A program made the translations under genes and the position numbers. Below, one piece after another: positions 8,583-56,016 of a stretch of 64,000 nucleotides of DNA. The DNA is from Candidatus Atabeyarchaeum deiterrae (lineage in GTDB: Archaea > Asgardarchaeota > Atabeyarchaeia > Atabeyarchaeales > Atabeyarchaeaceae), in NCBI GenBank assembly GCA_037310415.1, contig CP147780.1, forward strand, positions 928,001 to 992,000, written 5' to 3'. The notes below the pieces were generated by a model. It saw only the letters and a list, made by a program, of their open reading frames with translations, did no database searches and had not been told where the DNA came from. Positions within the stretch are counted from its first letter, which is position 1; every line of letters starts with the position of its first letter.

Positions 8583-9683
8583 CTATCTCTCTTCTTCCTC
8601 TTCCGCCGATCTGACTTTTCCTAACGCTCGCTCCTCAAGTTTCTTTAAGGCTTTCTCCAGGTCCTCTCCCAATTCGCCCTCAACGATCTTTGCGAAGCTA
8701 TCCGCTTCCGAGACTATGGTGGTCCTTTTCCCCTCCTCGTACACTCCTTTTGTCAGCACATCAATTGCCTTCTGAGGTTCCTTGACCACAACCGACGCTG
8801 ATTCCTTGGGCGCAGGCACTCCTTTCATCCTTACCAGCTTTTCTCCCATCCTCTTAGTTCTCACGAGAGGCATGGAGATCGGCACGCCTTCCTTGACCGA
8901 TGCCAACAATTGCGTCAATTGGCTCTTCTCTCTGAACATTTCGAATACAATGTGCGAGATTGACAATTCGTTTATAATTGATGCCGGTTTCTCTAGTTCA
9001 AAGATTAGGTCATAGTTGTCATTTATGCATTCAACTTCTTCTGCTGTTCTGCCTGAGCGCAAGCCGTTCATTATTTTTTCTGCTCTCCCGCGAGCCTTTT
9101 GTCTTTCTACGACGAATAGTCTTGACGCGTATGTTGGTGCTAAAGCCGTGGTCAAGGCTATGAAGAATACTGCCGTGTCTACTGGCGTGGCTAGGGGATG
9201 ATAAGCTCTCCACTCGGTCACTATGGGCTGTATGAATCCTTCAACGATTTCCCTTGTTTTGACCTGAAAATCGAGTGGTGTCATGGAGCCGTCGTCGGTA
9301 TCCTCTTTGTCAAGCTGAAGCATCTCGATTGCTCTGTTAACGTATGGGTTGAAGATTGAAAGAATGAACGTGTTCCACATCGCTTCTTTCTGCATAGATG
9401 TGATGTCAATGCTGCTAAGATCTCCATATACGCTGTCAATGAATCTGATGTTTTCTTGGGTATTGCTTCTTCCAGTATCCTCAAGTAGCTGCAACAGATA
9501 TGCCTTCTGTGGTGGAGTTCCAAACTTCTTCGAAAGTTGATTAAGTACGTCGTTCGGAATTGGCTCAAGCTCTGTTGGAAATTCTTCTACAGCGGATTCA
9601 GCCTTGTCTTTCGGTGTACTTATTCTGCCGATTGCGAGTAGCTCACGCCTTAAGCTCTCATCGTCTTCCATGATCGACTCCAC
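8583..9683 (-). CDS. hypothetical acidic, probably helical protein (366 aa)
   Basis: Long ORF with coding-like composition; no family recognised. Confidence 0.7.
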   Translation of the reverse strand: MESIMEDDESLRRELLAIGRISTPKDKAESAVEEFPTELEPIPNDVLNQLSKKFGTPPQKAYLLQLLEDTGRSNTQENIRFIDSVYGDLSSIDITSMQKEAMWNTFILSIFNPYVNRAIEMLQLDKEDTDDGSMTPLDFQVKTREIVEGFIQPIVTEWRAYHPLATPVDTAVFFIALTTALAPTYASRLFVVERQKARGRAEKIMNGLRSGRTAEEVECINDNYDLIFELEKPASIINELSISHIVFEMFREKSQLTQLLASVKEGVPISMPLVRTKRMGEKLVRMKGVPAPKESASVVVKEPQKAIDVLTKGVYEEGKRTTIVSEADSFAKIVEGELGEDLEKALKKLEERALGKVRSAEEEEER

Positions 9684-9923: not shown

Positions 9924-10810
9924 TCACATTTGAGCACTCTTCAGAGCGTCCTTGCATTCACACTTTCTTTCCTTTGGAACCTTCGGTATCACGCTGAAAA
10001 GCAGCTTGTTGACGTCCTCAATGTTTTGCTTCATAGACTTCACGACCTGTTCCGCCGTCACTGGTTTCAAACCATAGACATCAGTATCAGTAGGCATCGC
10101 TATGTTGGCAAAGCATATCTCTGCTTCTCTGGCAAGAGCACATTCAGGATAGGCCGTCAGTGCGGGGCAAATCGGTTCTTCACCTAATTCCTTGCCTTTC
10201 CGACAACATCCCATCCTTGTCTCTTGTAGAAGAGGGACTCTGCTCTGGTTGAGAATCTTGGTCCTTCGATGCAAACGTACTCAAACGAGTCATGATCTCT
10301 GGAGTTCTCTTTGGCGTGAATCTTCATGCCCAGTTTGGTAGCCGTATCCATTATCGTCTTTCTAAGCTCACTGCAAAACGGCTCAGCGAATGCGATGTGT
10401 CCTACAATGCCTCCGTCGAAGAAGGTTTGGTTCATTCGTGGCGCTGCAGTGAAGGTGACTATCTGGTCGCATGCTACGAATTCGCCGGGTTTGATTCTGT
10501 CAGGCTGTAAGCTTCCCACCGCGGCAGGGCTAATTATTCGCGTGACGCCAAGCGCCTTCATGGCCCAGATGTTGGCCCTGAAGTTAATTTTATGCGGAGG
10601 TATTCTATGTCCTCTTTGATGCCTGACTAGGAAGGCTACTTTCCTATCACCAATGTAGCCGACAAAAACATTATCGCTGGTCGCTCCATAAGGTGTGTAC
10701 ACTTTGAGTTCCTTTGCTTCCTTCATTATCTTGGGGTCGTAGCTGCCTGAACCCGCGAAAATGCCAATCTCTGCGTTTTCATGTGGGTCTATTAAACCAA
10801 TCATGCACAT
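9924..10810 (-). CDS. mtnP: S-methyl-5'-thioadenosine phosphorylase, interrupted by a 38-nt insertion (predicted exons 10810-10198 and 10159-9924; 282 aa if spliced)
   Basis: GIFAGSG, TPYG, RH..GH.IPPH.INFRANIWA, AVGSL and EGPRFSTRAES in one frame; TAYPECALAREAEICFA..TD.D in another; removing 10160-10197 restores VVGMTAYPE. Confidence 0.9.
10160..10197 (-). other. putative BHB/BHL-type (tRNA-like) mRNA intron, 38 nt
   Basis: Sense strand UCGG-AA^A-GGCAA...UUGCC-CCGC-AC^U-GACG: inner GGCAA/UUGCC stem, central helix with 3 of 4 pairs; excision rebuilds the ATG of GMT. Confidence 0.75.
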
Positions 10811-11203: not shown

Positions 11204-11509
11204 TTATAGGTCCCCCTTAATGCCTAAGAGCTCTTCATCCAACTCTTCTTCGATTTCTCTGTCTTCTTCTGTGAGTAGCATGTAGCTGCGTTCTCCGCGT
11301 ATGTCATCTACGTAGGGGTAACACACTTGTATTTCCTCCTTGTCTTCTGCAAGTGAGATCGCGTGGTTTGCTTCTTGTGGTGTCATGTCTTCCTCAATTA
11401 GTAGTTCCACCATTTTGTCTGCTTTGCAGAATTTTTTTTTCGCTTTAGCAAATACTCGTTTTACCGCCGACAAAAGTTGTTCTTCGTTAATGGTTGTCAT
11501 CGTCCTCAA
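11204..11509 (-). CDS. small acidic hypothetical protein (possible wHTH)
   Basis: 101-aa ORF overlapping the end of the LAGLIDADG gene, in operon-like arrangement. Confidence 0.6.
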   Translation of the reverse strand: MRTMTTINEEQLLSAVKRVFAKAKKKFCKADKMVELLIEEDMTPQEANHAISLAEDKEEIQVCYPYVDDIRGERSYMLLTEEDREIEEELDEELLGIKGDL

Positions 11510-13214
11510 TTCTTAGCGCCCTCCTGAGTGTTTCCTGTTTCCTATTCTGTGGAAACCCTATTTCCTCGTAGAATATCCTGCTGCCCTCTCTGGAAGTTGT
11601 GCGCATTCTCCATGTGACGCCATAGCCGCCGTCTTCTCGCTTATATATTGTAGTTGGGGACTTATTGGTTTTTATGCCGAAGTCGTCATGGAGTATTCTT
11701 GCTTCTGACTCTAAGAGCCGTGGACACTCAGACTCCAATACCTCTCGGATGTCCTTAGGTAAGGCATGAAACCTAGAATACTTGTTCTGTACTCTCCACC
11801 CATCTGGGAATAATTGTCTCTTCCATTTTTCGCTCAATACATCGAGCCGGTTTCTTTGCTCGTCTGATAGTCTATGAGTAGCATCTACGCCTCTCGACAA
11901 CGTTAGCAACCCCCTTCGAGTATAAGTTGTTCCTTCGTCACCGAAGGCTTGTTTTAGCCACTCTCGTTTCATTTCCTTTGATCCTTGCAAGATGAAGGTA
12001 GGTATGTCTGGGTTTTGTGTAACGACTTCGCCAGCTATTGCCCCTGATCTCCGCAGTGCGCATCCAATGACTTCCGTTGTTGCGCGCACTGTCGCAGCCC
12101 TGCCATCATCGTATTCTCTAATAAGTATATTTGGTCTGCCGAATACGTTTGTTAGTGATGCTATGACCCTAGTTCTTTGTTCTGCATCATTGTTTGTGTA
12201 GACGAATCTTGGTCCTCTGCCTTGAGTTGCGGAGAGCGATCCATCTGAGAATCTTGCCGCGTGGAGTCTCACTCCGTCGATGCCCGCCAGTCTAAAGCGG
12301 AGGTTCGGATTCTCAACCGCTCTTAGGTGTCCTATTGCTCTAATGTGGCAGTTGGGCTCGTTGAGATTTCTGTCGAGGTATGTTAGGATAGGAATCAGTT
12401 TATCAACTCTCACACCGTCCAGTCGGTCATGTAGTTGCTGCCATAAATATATGTTCCTAGTGTGTGTTCCTCTCTTTTCTAACTCCTGTCGGAGCGCGGT
12501 TTTCCCTCCTGCTTTTTCTATTGCAGCCTCAAGTAATTCATGTCTATATTGTCTGTCGAGATATATGTCGGTGGTTGGTGGTAGTGCAAACCACGGTGTT
12601 TCGTAGGGTGGGATTGTTGTGTTTTCTCTTGGTATGTGGAGGAATTCTTCTCCTTGTCTTGTTTTGTATCTGTAGAGTTCTAAGTCTCCTATTTTTTCTT
12701 GCTCTACTATTGTGATCTTGTAGTTCTTGTTCTCATGGATTATTGTGAGCCCTTCACTTACATCGAACTTCAATGTTGTTTTATCGTCTAACTTTGCTTC
12801 ATCTTTCTCAGGGATTACTCCTTGTTTTACGGATTGTTCTCGGTTGCCGTTGATGAACGCTAGTGGATCTTCACTCAATCTCCTAGGGTGGTGTTCTCCT
12901 ATTGCTTCTCTTTTCCTATCTGCGTCTTCTTCGTTTTCTTGCTTCAGTCTGTCAGCATCGGCGCTGGGATTCTCTGATTCAGTATTAGTCGACTGGTTTC
13001 TTTTCTCTGCGCCTACTCTATGTTCTTCCATCTCGCCTACCTTGATTGTTTCATTGCTCTCAACAGGAGTATTCATTGACCTCTCATATTCTTCCAAGCA
13101 CCATTCCAAGAAGTAGTCGTCTTCGCCATCTTCTTCGCGTGAGTTTTCTGCTTTTTCCCGTAGCTTTTCTCCACTCTCAACAGGCAACCTCTCAACCTCC
13201 AACAGCCTTGTCAT
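11487..13214 (-). CDS. stand-alone double-motif LAGLIDADG endonuclease-like protein with long acidic N-terminus
   Basis: LHAARFSDGSL...YTNND, IPTFILQGS..MKREWLKQAFGDEGT and FYEEIGFPQNRKQETL resemble intein-type DOD endonuclease blocks; no Hint splicing motifs seen. Confidence 0.75.
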   Translation of the reverse strand: MTRLLEVERLPVESGEKLREKAENSREEDGEDDYFLEWCLEEYERSMNTPVESNETIKVGEMEEHRVGAEKRNQSTNTESENPSADADRLKQENEEDADRKREAIGEHHPRRLSEDPLAFINGNREQSVKQGVIPEKDEAKLDDKTTLKFDVSEGLTIIHENKNYKITIVEQEKIGDLELYRYKTRQGEEFLHIPRENTTIPPYETPWFALPPTTDIYLDRQYRHELLEAAIEKAGGKTALRQELEKRGTHTRNIYLWQQLHDRLDGVRVDKLIPILTYLDRNLNEPNCHIRAIGHLRAVENPNLRFRLAGIDGVRLHAARFSDGSLSATQGRGPRFVYTNNDAEQRTRVIASLTNVFGRPNILIREYDDGRAATVRATTEVIGCALRRSGAIAGEVVTQNPDIPTFILQGSKEMKREWLKQAFGDEGTTYTRRGLLTLSRGVDATHRLSDEQRNRLDVLSEKWKRQLFPDGWRVQNKYSRFHALPKDIREVLESECPRLLESEARILHDDFGIKTNKSPTTIYKREDGGYGVTWRMRTTSREGSRIFYEEIGFPQNRKQETLRRALRIEDDDNH

Positions 13215-54558: not shown

Positions 54559-56016
54559 TTGGAATTGTCGATTGCGAGTCAAGTCAAAAGACTGGATGAG
54601 GTGCGGTGGGAAATTCCCACATCGTACAAAAATGGTATGCGAGTTCCAGGAAGACTAATCATGAATGAGAAGATCCTGGCGGGTCTCGACAAAGGCGTGC
54701 TAGATCAATGCTCAAATGTTGCCACACTGCCCGGGATCTACAAGTACTCAATAGCCCTCCCAGACGCCCACTGGGGATATGGATATCCAATAGGTGGTGT
54801 TGCTGCTTTTGACATGAACAATGGTGTAGTTAGCCCGGGTGGAGTTGGCTATGACATAAACTGTGGAGTGAGGATTCTGACTACGAATCTCGACGAAAAG
54901 GATGTGAGGCCGAGGATTAAGGCGCTTACGTCGTCGGTTTTCAATAATGTGCCGAGCGGAGTCGGTGCCACGGGGAAAATAAGAATGGAGGCCAACAAGC
55001 TGGATGCGGTGCTTGAGGGTGGGGCTCATTGGGCTGTTGAGCAAGGTTACGGTTGGAAGGAGGACCTTGAGAGAACAGAGGAAAAAGGGTGCATGCAAGA
55101 AGCTGACGCGGCTAAAGTGAGTTCTAGGGCAAAGCAAAGAGGGTCTCCACAATTGGGAACACTAGGAAGTGGCAACCATTACTTGGAGACGCAAATCGTC
55201 GAGAAGATCTTCGATGAAAGGGCAGCCAAGATCATGGGCGTGACGCATATCGGGCAGGTGACGGTGATGATCCATACTGGGTCGAGGGGATGCGGACATC
55301 AGATAGCCAGTGACTACATACGGGTGATGGAAGGTGCGGCAGTGAGGTACAAGATAGCTCTTCCAGATAGGCAGCTGGCTTGTGCTCCTGTGAACTCCAA
55401 GGAGGGACTAGACTACCTCGCAGGTATGCGATGTGGTGCCAACTATGCTTGGGCTAATAGGCAGTGTATTGTTCATTGGGTGAGAGAAAGTTTCCAAAAA
55501 ATCTTTGCAGCGGACGCAGAGAAACTGGGACTGCACATGGTATACGATGTCGCGCACAACATAGCTAAAATCGAAAACCACGAGATTGATGGAAAAACAG
55601 TCAAGGTCTGTGTTCACCGAAAAGGCGCTACACGGAGCTTCGCACCAAAGCACCCTGATATACCATCCATTTACAGCGAGATAGGACAGCCCGTCTTAGT
55701 AGGGGGTAGTATGGGTACAGCCAGCTACATTTTGACTGGAACAAGTCAGGCGATGAAGGAAACGTGGGGCTCAACTTGTCACGGCGCGGGAAGAACTATG
55801 AGCAGGGCAGGGGCGACGCGCAAATTCTCCCCAAGAGACATAATGAGAAGATTAGAATCGCAAGGAATAGAAATCCAAGCAGCTTCACTCGGAGAGCTTG
55901 CAGAAGAGTCATCAGAGTCATACAAGAATGTCGACGATGTCGTCGATTCATGTGACCAAGCTGGCTTATCTAGGAAGATCGTCAGGCTTCGACCTCTCTC
56001 GGTGATTAAGGGTTGA
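54559..56016 (+). CDS. rtcB: tRNA-splicing ligase RtcB
   Basis: PDAHWGYG, GYDINCG, GNHY, HTGSRG, HN, HRKGAT, HGAGR, YK. Confidence 0.96.
   Translation: MELSIASQVKRLDEVRWEIPTSYKNGMRVPGRLIMNEKILAGLDKGVLDQCSNVATLPGIYKYSIALPDAHWGYGYPIGGVAAFDMNNGVVSPGGVGYDINCGVRILTTNLDEKDVRPRIKALTSSVFNNVPSGVGATGKIRMEANKLDAVLEGGAHWAVEQGYGWKEDLERTEEKGCMQEADAAKVSSRAKQRGSPQLGTLGSGNHYLETQIVEKIFDERAAKIMGVTHIGQVTVMIHTGSRGCGHQIASDYIRVMEGAAVRYKIALPDRQLACAPVNSKEGLDYLAGMRCGANYAWANRQCIVHWVRESFQKIFAADAEKLGLHMVYDVAHNIAKIENHEIDGKTVKVCVHRKGATRSFAPKHPDIPSIYSEIGQPVLVGGSMGTASYILTGTSQAMKETWGSTCHGAGRTMSRAGATRKFSPRDIMRRLESQGIEIQAASLGELAEESSESYKNVDDVVDSCDQAGLSRKIVRLRPLSVIKG

What the first reader, a model, noticed from the sequence alone, without database searches (positions are those of the whole stretch)
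10160..10197. Probable tRNA-type (bulge-helix-bulge) intron inside the mtnP/MTAP mRNA
Seen: MTAP is split across two frames exactly at the conserved substrate-binding G-M-T motif. The sense strand reads GAT GTT GTC GGA A[AGGCAAGGAATTAGGTGAAGAACCGATTTGCCCCGCAC]TG ACG GCC TAT CCT GAA. Removing the 38 bracketed nt gives D-V-V-G-M-T-A-Y-P-E and a normal-length 282-aa enzyme. The insert contains an in-frame TAG, so the unspliced RNA gives a truncated protein. The insert is not a duplication of its flanks. It folds as an inner GGCAA/UUGCC stem (plus a GGU/ACC hairpin), a central UCGG/CCGC helix (3 of 4 paired), then AAA and ACU 3-nt segments. Established: archaeal EndA cuts after the 2nd nt of each bulge that follows the 4-bp helix, and these positions (AA^A, AC^U) are exactly the ones that rebuild the ATG. 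Archaeal mRNA introns are best known from crenarchaeal cbf5. Inference: this is an EndA/RtcB-spliced intron in a metabolic gene, possibly a splicing-controlled switch on methionine salvage. The outer helix is imperfect (BHL-like), so a relaxed-specificity EndA would be needed.
Basis: partly seen in the sequence, partly recalled or inferred. Interest (0 to 1): 0.95.

Follow-up and report, generated by a model that had tools for sequence, protein, structure and literature searches.

The report
tRNA-type intron inside Asgard MTAP gene
The only methylthioadenosine phosphorylase gene of this Asgard archaeon (Atabeyarchaeia) is interrupted, inside its substrate-binding motif, by a 38-base hairpin that looks like a tRNA-type intron and is conserved in every known relative, so its mRNA very probably has to be cut and rejoined before a working enzyme can be made; in print, such splicing is confirmed in archaea for only one gene, cbf5.

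Summary
A 38-nt insert (window 10160-10197, minus strand) splits mtnP/MTAP at the G-M-T motif. Excision gives an intact 280-aa enzyme; Met-Thr is invariant in 67/67 uninterrupted homologs.

It is neither an artefact nor a decaying gene:
- Twelve distinct versions (35-42 nt) sit at the same codon in all known relatives above 64% identity.
- Each has an in-frame stop.
- Both exons show dN/dS of 0.01-0.07, with synonymous sites saturated.

Boundaries are conserved, interiors drift and the stems covary (90.9% of cells paired; 34-53% in slid controls). The fold is a relaxed bulge-helix-bulge. The cuts it predicts rebuild the ATG exactly.

The genome encodes alpha and beta EndA subunits, the alpha with the loop and lysine linked to broad specificity, plus RtcB. 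I verified six further interrupted protein genes (cbf5, gatE, valS, rio2, radical SAM, RuBisCO-like). One has a natural intron-less allele in the sister genome.

No RNA data could be obtained, so splicing is inferred (confidence 0.85). The 'regulatory switch' idea is untested.

Earlier reports of this scan describe similar mRNA introns in other archaeal genomes. In the papers I could search, only cbf5 is confirmed.

The parts
10198..10804 (-). mtnP/MTAP exon 1 (ATG 10804; an alternative ATG lies at 10810). It ends with GGA + A, the first base of the Met codon (phase 1).
   Evidence: Pfam PNP_UDP_1 positions 2-173/233. The closest solved structures are archaeal MTAPs: 1v4n, 2a8y and 1wta, with E = 1e-56 to 1e-63. 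dN/dS is 0.016-0.056.
10160..10197 (-). 38-nt intron (AGGCAAGG...CCCCGCAC) containing an in-frame TAG.
   Evidence: There are 12 distinct orthologous variants of 35-42 nt at the identical site. The interior varies, while the first bases AG[GA] and the last bases CC[GA][CGU]A[UCG] are conserved.
9924..10159 (-). mtnP exon 2 (TG + ACG GCC TAT ...; stop codon at 9924-9926).
   Evidence: Pfam PNP_UDP_1 positions 176-232/233. dN/dS is 0.010-0.069. It restores the invariant M-T seen in 67/67 intact homologs.
10197..10199 (-). 5' bulge A-A^A. The predicted cut lies between 10198 and 10197.
   Evidence: Invariant in 12/12 variants and unpaired in the MFE and consensus folds.
10200..10203 (-). Central helix, 5' strand (UCGG, exon 1).
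   Evidence: Pairs with 10162-10165 (CCGC). Three pairs are standard in all 12 variants (two invariant G:C; one runs C:G/U:G/U:A). The fourth is U.C in G000 and becomes U:G in two variants.
10162..10165 (-). Central helix, 3' strand (CCGC, intron).
10159..10161 (-). 3' bulge A-C^U. The predicted cut lies between 10160 and 10159. The middle base is U in 9, C in 2 and G in 1 of the 12 variants, and never A.
10191..10196 (-). Inner (intron) stem, 5' strand GGCAAG, pairing with 10166-10171.
   Evidence: 94.4% of cells are paired, and 4 of 6 pairs show changes on both sides.
10166..10171 (-). Inner (intron) stem, 3' strand UUUGCC.
10205..10217 (-). Outer exon-exon helix, 5' strand (in exon 1).
   Evidence: 93.1% of cells are paired with 10146-10158. 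Pair 4:79 of alignment A2 varies A:U/G:C/G:U at two third-codon positions.
10146..10158 (-). Outer exon-exon helix, 3' strand (in exon 2).
54706..56013 (+). rtcB, the RNA ligase expected to join the exons (Pfam match range).
   Evidence: PF01139, 582 bits, E = 5e-175, open frame 495 aa, no stops.

Best explanation
The 38 nt at window 10160-10197 (minus strand) are a tRNA-type, relaxed bulge-helix-bulge intron in the mtnP pre-mRNA.

Proposed mechanism:
1. In the transcript, the two exon flanks pair with each other and the intron forms a hairpin.
2. This presents an AAA bulge and an A-N-U bulge on opposite strands, four helix positions apart.
3. The host splicing endonuclease (alpha and beta EndA subunits) cuts after the second base of each bulge.
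4. RtcB joins the exons, creating the codon A|UG for the invariant Met of the G-M-T substrate-binding motif. The intron is released, probably as a small circle.

Shown here: the anatomy, its conservation and covariation, selection on both exons, exact restoration of the family motif, presence of the enzymes, and the same arrangement in six other protein genes of this genome.

Inferred: that cleavage and ligation actually happen on this mRNA.
For: 1. Conservation. The insert is at the same codon in two same-family genomes and in metagenome contigs: 12 distinct variants in all, of 35, 36, 37, 38, 39 and 42 nt, each with an in-frame stop. In a search of 5.8 billion proteins, every relative above 64% identity is truncated at 207-215 aa. 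The closest relatives below that, at 64% identity or less, are full-length proteins of about 270-297 aa.

2. Selection. dN/dS is 0.016-0.056 for exon 1 and 0.010-0.069 for exon 2, with dS mostly above 1. The frame downstream of the insert is therefore translated.

3. Exact repair. 67/67 uninterrupted homologs have [G/N]-M-T at the junction. The spliced product matches them with no residue gained or lost, and the halves are contiguous in Pfam PF01048.

4. Structure.
- The fold has z = -3.16.
- The BHB model is paired in 90.9% of cells, against 34-53% for slid controls.
- 0 of 500 shuffles reach the paired fraction or the covariation score.
- Compensatory series occur in the intron stem (G:C/G:U/A:U; A:U/G:C), in the central helix (C:G/U:G/U:A, involving a synonymous exon site) and in the exon-exon helix.

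5. Machinery.
- Two EndA paralogs are present.
- The larger is closest to the catalytic alpha subunits of crenarchaeal heterotetramers (E = 2e-46). It keeps the Crenarchaea-specific loop with K93/K95 at the places of A. pernix K44/R46. K44 was shown to enable cleavage of relaxed motifs (PMC3241643).
- RtcB is present.

6. Precedent in the same genome.
- cbf5, gatE, radical SAM, a RuBisCO-like gene, rio2 and valS carry 28-53-nt inserts whose BHB-rule cuts restore hallmark motifs.
- Six of the seven inserts, mtnP included, recur in the sister genome with conserved bulges and rewritten interiors.
- The radical-SAM insert is precisely absent from the sister genome's intact ORF.
- rio2 and valS have their central-helix mismatch at the same position as mtnP.
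- About half of the well-anchored canonical tRNA introns also have only 3 of 4 central pairs.
Against: - No RNA evidence. No listed sequencing run that holds the locus is on record as RNA, so neither spliced mRNA nor a circular intron has been seen.
- The motif is not a strict hBHBh'. The central-helix position next to the 3' bulge is unpaired in 10 of 12 variants, and one G (10204) is left unpaired opposite the 3' bulge. The consensus fold prefers a G:U pair that would shorten the 3' bulge to 2 nt.
- In 10 of 12 variants the last intron base makes TTG or GTG in the exon-2 frame, so gene callers annotate exon 2 as a separate 78-aa gene.
- The 12 sequences are related, so the shuffle statistics overstate independence.
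Confidence: 0.85

Rival explanations
1. Split gene. The two halves are translated separately, with the C-terminal 78-aa piece starting at the TTG/GTG formed by the last intron base, and they assemble into an active MTAP. The 'insert' is an intergenic spacer.
For: Ten of 12 variants have TTG or GTG in frame at the boundary, which would give M-T-A-Y-P-E. Gene callers annotate a 78-aa product there.
Against: - G000 and one other variant have CTG. There, the nearest in-frame start lies inside exon 1 and would add unrelated residues.
- The base is never A, although ATG would be the best start.
- None of the six versions examined has a Shine-Dalgarno-like core upstream, compared with 41% of long ORFs and a 16% background. 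The putative start is also buried in the helix.
- The break lies inside a single Pfam domain, at an active-site motif.
- This model does not explain the covarying exon-exon helix, the invariant AAA bulge, or the BHB spacing.
- The six other interrupted genes have AAT, GAC, AGG, ATC and similar codons at the exon-2 boundary, so they cannot restart there.
Confidence: 0.07
2. Translational recoding. The ribosome bypasses the insert by hopping, as in phage T4 gene 60, or shifts frame across it.
For: A stop codon lies shortly after the GGA codon, and a hairpin follows it, as in gene 60.
Against: - There is no conserved landing codon that matches the take-off GGA. Only 2 of the first 6 variants have GGA near the 3' end.
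- The Met codon does not exist in the unspliced RNA, so the invariant M could not be made.
- The lengths 35-42 nt cover all three phases, and every variant has an in-frame stop, so no single frameshift works.
Confidence: 0.02
3. Broken gene or assembly artefact: a pseudogene, or a mis-assembled insertion.
For: On its own, the gene looks frameshifted.
Against: - The insert is found in independent assemblies from several studies.
- The source genomes were hand-curated and validated with long reads (PMC11291895).
- dN/dS is about 0.01-0.07 on both exons, with saturated dS.
- There are no other lesions in any of the 12 versions.
- It is the only MTAP-like match in the genome.
Confidence: 0.01

Closest known systems
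BHB intron of the cbf5 pre-mRNA in Crenarchaeota (Watanabe 2002; Yoshinari 2006; Yokobori 2009, PMC2738675)
   Same: A short intron of tRNA type inside a protein-coding sequence. Left unspliced, it gives a stop or a frameshift. It is predicted to be cut by a hetero-oligomeric EndA and rejoined, and its position is conserved among relatives. This genome's own cbf5 carries a 41-nt BHB insert that splits the codon of the conserved Asp in GHGGTL[D]PRVTG.
   Different: The gene is a metabolic enzyme, not an RNA-modification enzyme. The lineage is Asgard (Atabeyarchaeia), not Desulfurococcales or Sulfolobales. The motif is relaxed on its 3' side. It is one of at least seven interrupted protein genes in one genome. 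Splicing has not been shown experimentally here.
Non-canonical tRNA introns with relaxed BHB/BHL motifs, as in Thermoproteales and in Atabeyarchaeia/Freyarchaeia (PMC11291895; bioRxiv 10.64898/2026.10.13.758758)
   Same: The same predicted enzymes and the same local 'dialect': 3-nt bulges, often only 3 of 4 central pairs, and introns of tens of bases. 92-95% of tRNA genes in these genomes have introns.
   Different: The substrate is an mRNA, and the outer helix is built from coding sequence, so synonymous sites are constrained. Neither paper mentions introns in protein genes.
Unconventional cytoplasmic splicing of HAC1/XBP1 mRNA (Ire1 plus tRNA ligase/RtcB) in eukaryotes
   Same: An mRNA intron is removed by a protein endonuclease at paired stem-loop sites and sealed by a tRNA-type ligase (RtcB in metazoa). 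Removal changes the reading frame.
   Different: The endonuclease and the recognition motif are different. That system is a stress-regulated switch, and no regulation is shown here. This comparison rests on general knowledge and was not tested.
BHB element in the 5' UTR of a Haloferax mRNA, found among EndA substrates (PMC7714728)
   Same: It shows that archaeal EndA acts on mRNAs beyond cbf5.
   Different: It lies in an untranslated region and does not interrupt a coding sequence. I saw only the title and abstract of this paper. That the element lies in a 5' UTR comes from my own recollection and from an earlier scan note, not from the text.

Membership tests
Strict archaeal hBHBh' splicing motif | Two 3-nt bulges on opposite strands, separated by exactly 4 base pairs | tested here: not met
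   The 5' bulge AAA is perfect and invariant. The spacing is exactly 4 positions, but the position next to the 3' bulge is U.C in G000 and is unpaired in 10 of 12 variants (4 bp in 2 of 12). One G is unpaired opposite the 3' bulge.
Relaxed BHB / bulge-helix-loop motif accepted by (alpha-beta)2 and epsilon2 EndAs | One well-formed bulge plus a central helix, with the second site in a bulge or loop at the canonical distance, and flanking helices | tested here: met
   AAA bulge; three central-helix pairs kept as standard pairs in all 12 variants; 3' site A-N^U in a small internal loop. The inner stem is 94% paired and the outer exon-exon helix 93% paired. rio2, valS and tRNA-Val(UAC) of the same genome show the same relaxation.
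EndA/RtcB-spliced intron | Cuts after the second base of each bulge give the functional exon junction | tested here: met
   AA^A and AC^U give GGA-AUG-ACG, that is G-M-T. M-T is invariant in 67/67 intact homologs, with no indel.
EndA/RtcB-spliced intron | The host encodes a splicing endonuclease able to cut relaxed motifs | tested here: met
   Two paralogs each carry the N- and C-terminal EndA domains. The 238-aa protein is closest to crenarchaeal alpha subunits and keeps the CSL with K93/K95 aligned to APE K44/R46. The 198-aa protein also matches the beta subunits PAE0789 and NEQ261. Activity and oligomeric state were not tested.
EndA/RtcB-spliced intron | The host encodes the RtcB ligase | tested here: met
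   PF01139, 582 bits, window 54706-56013.
EndA/RtcB-spliced intron | Spliced RNA and excised (circular) intron observed | not testable with these tools
   No listed run that holds the locus is on record as RNA, and the one metatranscriptome-labelled run gave no cover.
Archaeal protein-gene BHB introns (cbf5 type) | Same site in orthologs, intron sequence free to vary, exons under selection, intact genes in outgroups | tested here: met
   12 variants at one site. dN/dS is at most 0.07. All more distant homologs are uninterrupted.
MTAP / mtnP (PNP_UDP_1, PF01048) | The family domain is complete, and the closest solved relatives are MTAPs | tested here: met
   The halves cover profile positions 2-173 and 176-232 of 233. 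The closest structures are 1v4n, 2a8y and 1wta (archaeal MTAPs), with E down to 3e-63. Enzyme activity was not tested.
Translational bypassing (T4 gene 60 type) | Matching take-off and landing codons flanking the gap | tested here: not met
   There is no conserved GGA/GGN landing codon, and the Met codon is absent from unspliced RNA.
Split gene with independent initiation | A conserved start codon and ribosome-binding signal for the downstream piece | tested here: not met
   CTG in 2 of 12 variants, never ATG, and an SD-like core in 0 of 6.

The most novel reading that the evidence does not exclude
Atabeyarchaeia, an Asgard lineage, routinely splice messenger RNAs with the tRNA-splicing enzymes. 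At least seven protein genes of this genome, including essential ones (valS, gatE, cbf5, rio2), can only be expressed after EndA/RtcB splicing. Each insert I examined splits a recognisable conserved sequence motif. Six of seven are in phase 1, with a 5' bulge of the form A-N^A, and one is polymorphic between sister genomes. This pattern suggests mobile mini-introns that target conserved sequence. It would also mean that a cell without a nucleus must keep ribosomes off unspliced housekeeping mRNAs.
Probability: 0.5. Interest if true: 0.85.

Novelty: new member of a known kind. Interest (0 to 1): 0.75.

Why it matters
In the literature I could search, archaeal pre-mRNA splicing is experimentally confirmed for a single gene, cbf5, in Crenarchaeota (PMC2738675). 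Here a metabolic enzyme gene in an Asgard archaeon, one of the closest prokaryotic relatives of eukaryotes, carries the same kind of intron. It is conserved and under selection, and it sits in a genome where at least six other protein genes are interrupted in the same way.

If splicing is confirmed, three things follow:
- Obligatory mRNA splicing by protein enzymes would be part of normal gene expression in this lineage.
- Automatic annotation systematically mis-calls such genes as truncated proteins or as two genes. Databases list the 207-215-aa fragment as 'MTAP', and metabolic reconstructions may count the pathway wrongly.
- It raises a testable question: how are transcription-coupled translation and splicing kept apart without a nucleus?

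Tried and rejected
- **RNA evidence.** The look-up of sequencing runs listed no RNA holder. The one metatranscriptome-labelled run of the source study (X13) gave no cover when laid.
- **Genome-wide census by structure.** A BHB-geometry scan combined with an ORF-fusion filter gave frame-compatible to frame-incompatible counts of 1250:2584 and 1496:3318, which is the 1:2 null. Requiring the same junction in the sister genome gave 543:1112, again null. The top ranks were rRNA operons and ordinary adjacent genes. I conclude that such introns cannot be enumerated from structure plus open frames alone. mtnP, gatE and the radical-SAM gene were recovered, but cbf5, rio2, valS and the RuBisCO-like gene were missed or ranked low because their inner or outer helices are offset.
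- **Candidate at window ~41662** (78/77 nt, 392 + 1088 aa). This is an ordinary gene boundary with stop, GGAGGG and ATG.
- **Presence/absence hit at window ~48.6-49.2 kb.** These are spurious antisense ORFs around an intergenic indel.
The flanking ORFs of 575, 366 and 101 aa have no Pfam family.
- **Supplementary tables of the genome paper.** They hold no entry for MTAP/mtnP.
- **Aragorn-based tRNA intron table**. It is rough: aragorn finds only 24 tRNAs, and many calls are imprecise. I used only those anchored by a 4-5-bp anticodon stem.
- **Other readings considered and rejected.** Frameshifting, bypassing, pseudogene and artefact (see rivals); a self-splicing group I/II intron (far too small); a mini-intein (the length is not a multiple of 3, and stops are present).

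Full report
**What is there.** On the minus strand of the window lies a single MTAP/mtnP gene. Exon 1 (10804..10198) ends GAT GTT GTC GGA A. Then come 38 nt (10197..10160). Exon 2 (10159..9924) starts TG ACG GCC TAT CCT GAA. Removing the 38 nt gives a 280-aa protein reading ...QGWDVVGMTAYPECALARE.... Left in place, the frame reads GKARN and stops. The two halves match consecutive parts of one Pfam domain, PNP_UDP_1: positions 2-173 and 176-232 of 233. The nearest solved structures are archaeal MTAPs, 1v4n, 2a8y and 1wta. This is the only MTAP-like match in the genome. The insert is not a duplication of its flanks.

**Organism.** The window is part of a complete 2.76-Mb chromosome with 46.6% G+C. 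Its closest relatives are named SRVP18_Atabeyarchaeia-1 (CP147779.1) and the MAG LC30, so this is an Asgard archaeon of the Atabeyarchaeia. The paper describing these genomes reports hand curation, validation with Nanopore and PacBio reads, and introns in 92-95% of tRNA genes, often at non-canonical positions. It says nothing about introns in protein genes (PMC11291895). A 2026 preprint on Asgard tRNA introns is likewise restricted to tRNAs. Aragorn finds only 24 tRNAs here, nearly all with introns.

**Not an artefact and not a dead gene.**
- The two same-family genomes carry an insert at the identical codon, of 35 and 39 nt.
- Metagenome contigs and protein-cluster members added more, giving twelve distinct versions of 35, 36, 37, 38, 39 and 42 nt. 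Every one has an in-frame stop, and every one gives ...GWDVVGMTAYPECALARE... when removed.
- In a search of 5.8 billion proteins, every relative above 64% identity is truncated at 207-215 aa. The closest relatives below that, at 64% identity or less, are full-length proteins of about 270-297 aa.
- A 9.5-kb contig from an unrelated soil study spans the insert with small indels inside it. No DNA contig joins across it without the insert.
- Pairwise dN/dS is 0.016-0.056 for exon 1 and 0.010-0.069 for exon 2, while synonymous sites are mostly saturated. The frame after the insert has therefore been read as protein for a long time with the insert present.

**The junction is exact.** All 67 uninterrupted homologs I held have [G/N]-M-T at this place, with Met-Thr invariant. 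The spliced product aligns with them without any gained or lost residue. Shifting the excision by one base on either side would give G-L-T or G-K-T instead.

**Structure.**
- The 81-nt region folds to -28.4 kcal/mol (z = -3.16).
- The exon flanks pair with each other (AGGAUGGG/CCUAUCCU and UGUU/GACG).
- Next come one unpaired G, a central helix UCGG/CCGC with a U.C mismatch at the position next to the 3' bulge, the AAA bulge, and an intron hairpin.
- On the 12-sequence alignment, this model is paired in 90.9% of cells, against 34-53% when partners are slid by 1-3 columns. None of 500 shuffles reaches the observed paired fraction or the covariation score (the sequences are related, so this overstates independence).
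- Changes on both sides occur in four of six inner-stem pairs (G:C/G:U/A:U, A:U/G:C). The central helix shows a C:G, U:G, U:A series that couples a synonymous exon site to the intron. At the base of the exon-exon helix, two third-codon positions read A:U, G:C or G:U.
- The 5' bulge AAA is invariant. The 3' bulge is A-N-U, with N = U in 9, C in 2 and G in 1 of the 12 variants.

**Fit to the known rule.** I checked the rule 'cut after the second bulge base' against tRNA numbering. The stem ends at 31/39 and the canonical intron lies at 37/38. That places a 4-position helix (32-35) between the bulges and puts the cuts after base 2 of each bulge. This is established knowledge. Applied here, AA^A and AC^U are exactly the cuts that rebuild A|UG. 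The motif is not a strict hBHBh', because the fourth central pair is missing in 10 of 12 variants (present in 2), and one G faces the 3' bulge. It fits the relaxed class.

**The host is equipped for relaxed motifs.**
- It has two EndA paralogs, each with both EndA domains.
- The 238-aa paralog is closest to the catalytic alpha subunits of the A. pernix, S. tokodaii and P. aerophilum enzymes.
- It aligns without gaps through the Crenarchaea-specific loop, with K93 and K95 at the places of K44 and R46. K44 was shown to be needed for cutting relaxed bulge-helix-loop motifs (PMC3241643).
- The 198-aa paralog also matches the structural beta subunits.
- RtcB lies in this window at 54706-56013.
- About half of this genome's well-anchored canonical tRNA introns also have only three central pairs. 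tRNA-Val(UAC) has its mismatch at the same position as mtnP (a rough analysis).

**The same thing in other genes.** Earlier first-stage notes of this scan pointed to other interrupted genes in this genome. I checked each one myself.

| Gene | Insert | Phase | Motif restored (bracket = codon rebuilt by the join; \| = join between codons) | Source |
|---|---|---|---|---|
| cbf5 | 41 nt | 1 | GHGGTL[D]PRVTG | |
| gatE | 41 nt | 1 | LVEA[D]DEPPHP | |
| radical SAM | 53 nt | 1 | CNLTCP[W]C | |
| RuBisCO-like | 28 nt | 1 | GSGGG[I]HAHP | |
| rio2 | 52 nt | 0 | GVGKE\|SDVY | |
| valS | 31 nt | 1 | DRNG\|LPIE | |

In the first four genes the bulges are well formed, the central helix has 4 bp, and the exon-2 boundary codon cannot serve as a start. 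rio2 and valS have their single central-helix mismatch at the same position as mtnP.

After fetching the whole sister genome, I found six of the seven inserts, mtnP included, at the orthologous sites. Their bulges are conserved, their interiors are rewritten, and their helices show compensatory changes. The radical-SAM insert is precisely absent from the sister genome's intact 371-aa ORF. That is a natural intron-less allele.

**Rivals.**
- *Split gene restarting at the boundary.* In its favour, TTG or GTG stands there in 10 of 12 variants, and gene callers annotate a 78-aa product. Against it: two variants, including this genome, have CTG; the base is never A; none of the six versions examined has a Shine-Dalgarno-like core (41% of long ORFs do; background 16%); the site is buried in the helix; and the model explains neither the covarying exon-exon helix nor the other six genes.
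- *Bypassing or frameshifting.* This fails because there is no conserved landing codon, the Met codon is absent from unspliced RNA, and the lengths cover all three phases.
- *Pseudogene or artefact.* Refuted by selection and by independent assemblies.

**What is not shown.** I could obtain no RNA data, so splicing is inferred. The idea that splicing regulates methionine salvage is untested. The only related observation is that the RuBisCO-like gene's splice-site core (GCGG AA^A ... CCGC AA^U) closely resembles that of mtnP (UCGG AA^A ... CCGC AC^U). Two attempts at a genome-wide census from structure and open frames gave null frame ratios, so the true number of mRNA introns is unknown.

**Comparison with what is known, and verdict.** As of 2009, cbf5 was the only archaeal protein gene with confirmed pre-mRNA splicing, and others were only predicted (PMC2738675). 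My searches of the held library found no report of protein-gene BHB introns in Asgard archaea. Earlier reports of this scan, which I did not verify, describe similar introns in other archaeal genomes, including other Asgard lineages. I therefore file this as a new member of a known kind: a cbf5-type, EndA/RtcB-spliced mRNA intron in a new gene and a new lineage, with a relaxed motif. Confidence is 0.85, and interest is 0.75.

Noticed in passing
G000:C1:395677-395717 (+), outside the window: cbf5 carries a 41-nt canonical BHB insert (GGGA CUCU AG^A ... AGAG UA^A UCCC) that splits the Asp codon of GHGGTL[D]PRVTG. The sister genome has it too, with H' changed from AGAG to GGGG, which still pairs.
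   Followed up: yes
G000:C1:919007-919059 (-), 8.9 kb before the window start: A radical-SAM gene has a 53-nt canonical BHB insert inside CNLTCP[W]C. The sister genome G001 has an intact 371-aa ORF without it, so the intron is polymorphic between the two genera.
   Followed up: yes
G000:C1:2222226-2222266 (-), 2663481-2663508 (-), 771193-771244 (+), 457151-457181 (+): gatE (41 nt), a RuBisCO-like gene (28 nt), rio2 (52 nt) and valS (31 nt) are interrupted in the same way. All four inserts recur in G001. Across the seven genes, six are in phase 1 and six have a 5' bulge of the form A-N^A (rio2 has AA^U). Each insert I examined splits a recognisable conserved motif. The sample came partly from readers' notes, so the bias may be one of ascertainment.
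   Followed up: partly
window 54706-56013 (+): The RtcB RNA ligase gene lies in the same window as the interrupted mtnP (582 bits to PF01139).
   Followed up: partly
G001 (L095-L235) about 2712769-2712783 (-), and 2700555-2707169: The sister genome's RuBisCO-like gene has an additional 22-nt insertion relative to G000. Five further partial copies of that gene's C-terminal ~35 residues lie within 12 kb nearby.
   Followed up: no
window 11487-13214 (-), 8583-9683 (-), 11204-11509 (-): The ORFs flanking mtnP (575, 366 and 101 aa) have no Pfam family. In most relatives, the gene upstream of mtnP is instead an Endo_dU (PF01949) gene, so local synteny differs.
   Followed up: partly
window 10189-10197 and 10214-10222: The first 9 nt of the intron (AGGCAAGGA in sense) resemble exon sequence 25 nt upstream (AGACAAGGA) at 8 of 9 positions. 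This is probably chance.
   Followed up: no
whole genome G000: Aragorn detects only 24 tRNA genes, almost all with introns, in a complete 2.76-Mb genome. Standard tRNA finders clearly miss most of the heavily interrupted tRNA genes.
   Followed up: no
L236, L239, L241, L244 (public contigs): Public gene calls record the interrupted gene as two products, a 205-245-aa 'MTAP' and a separate 78-aa protein. One variant is filed at NCBI under Candidatus Njordarchaeum guaymaensis.
   Followed up: partly
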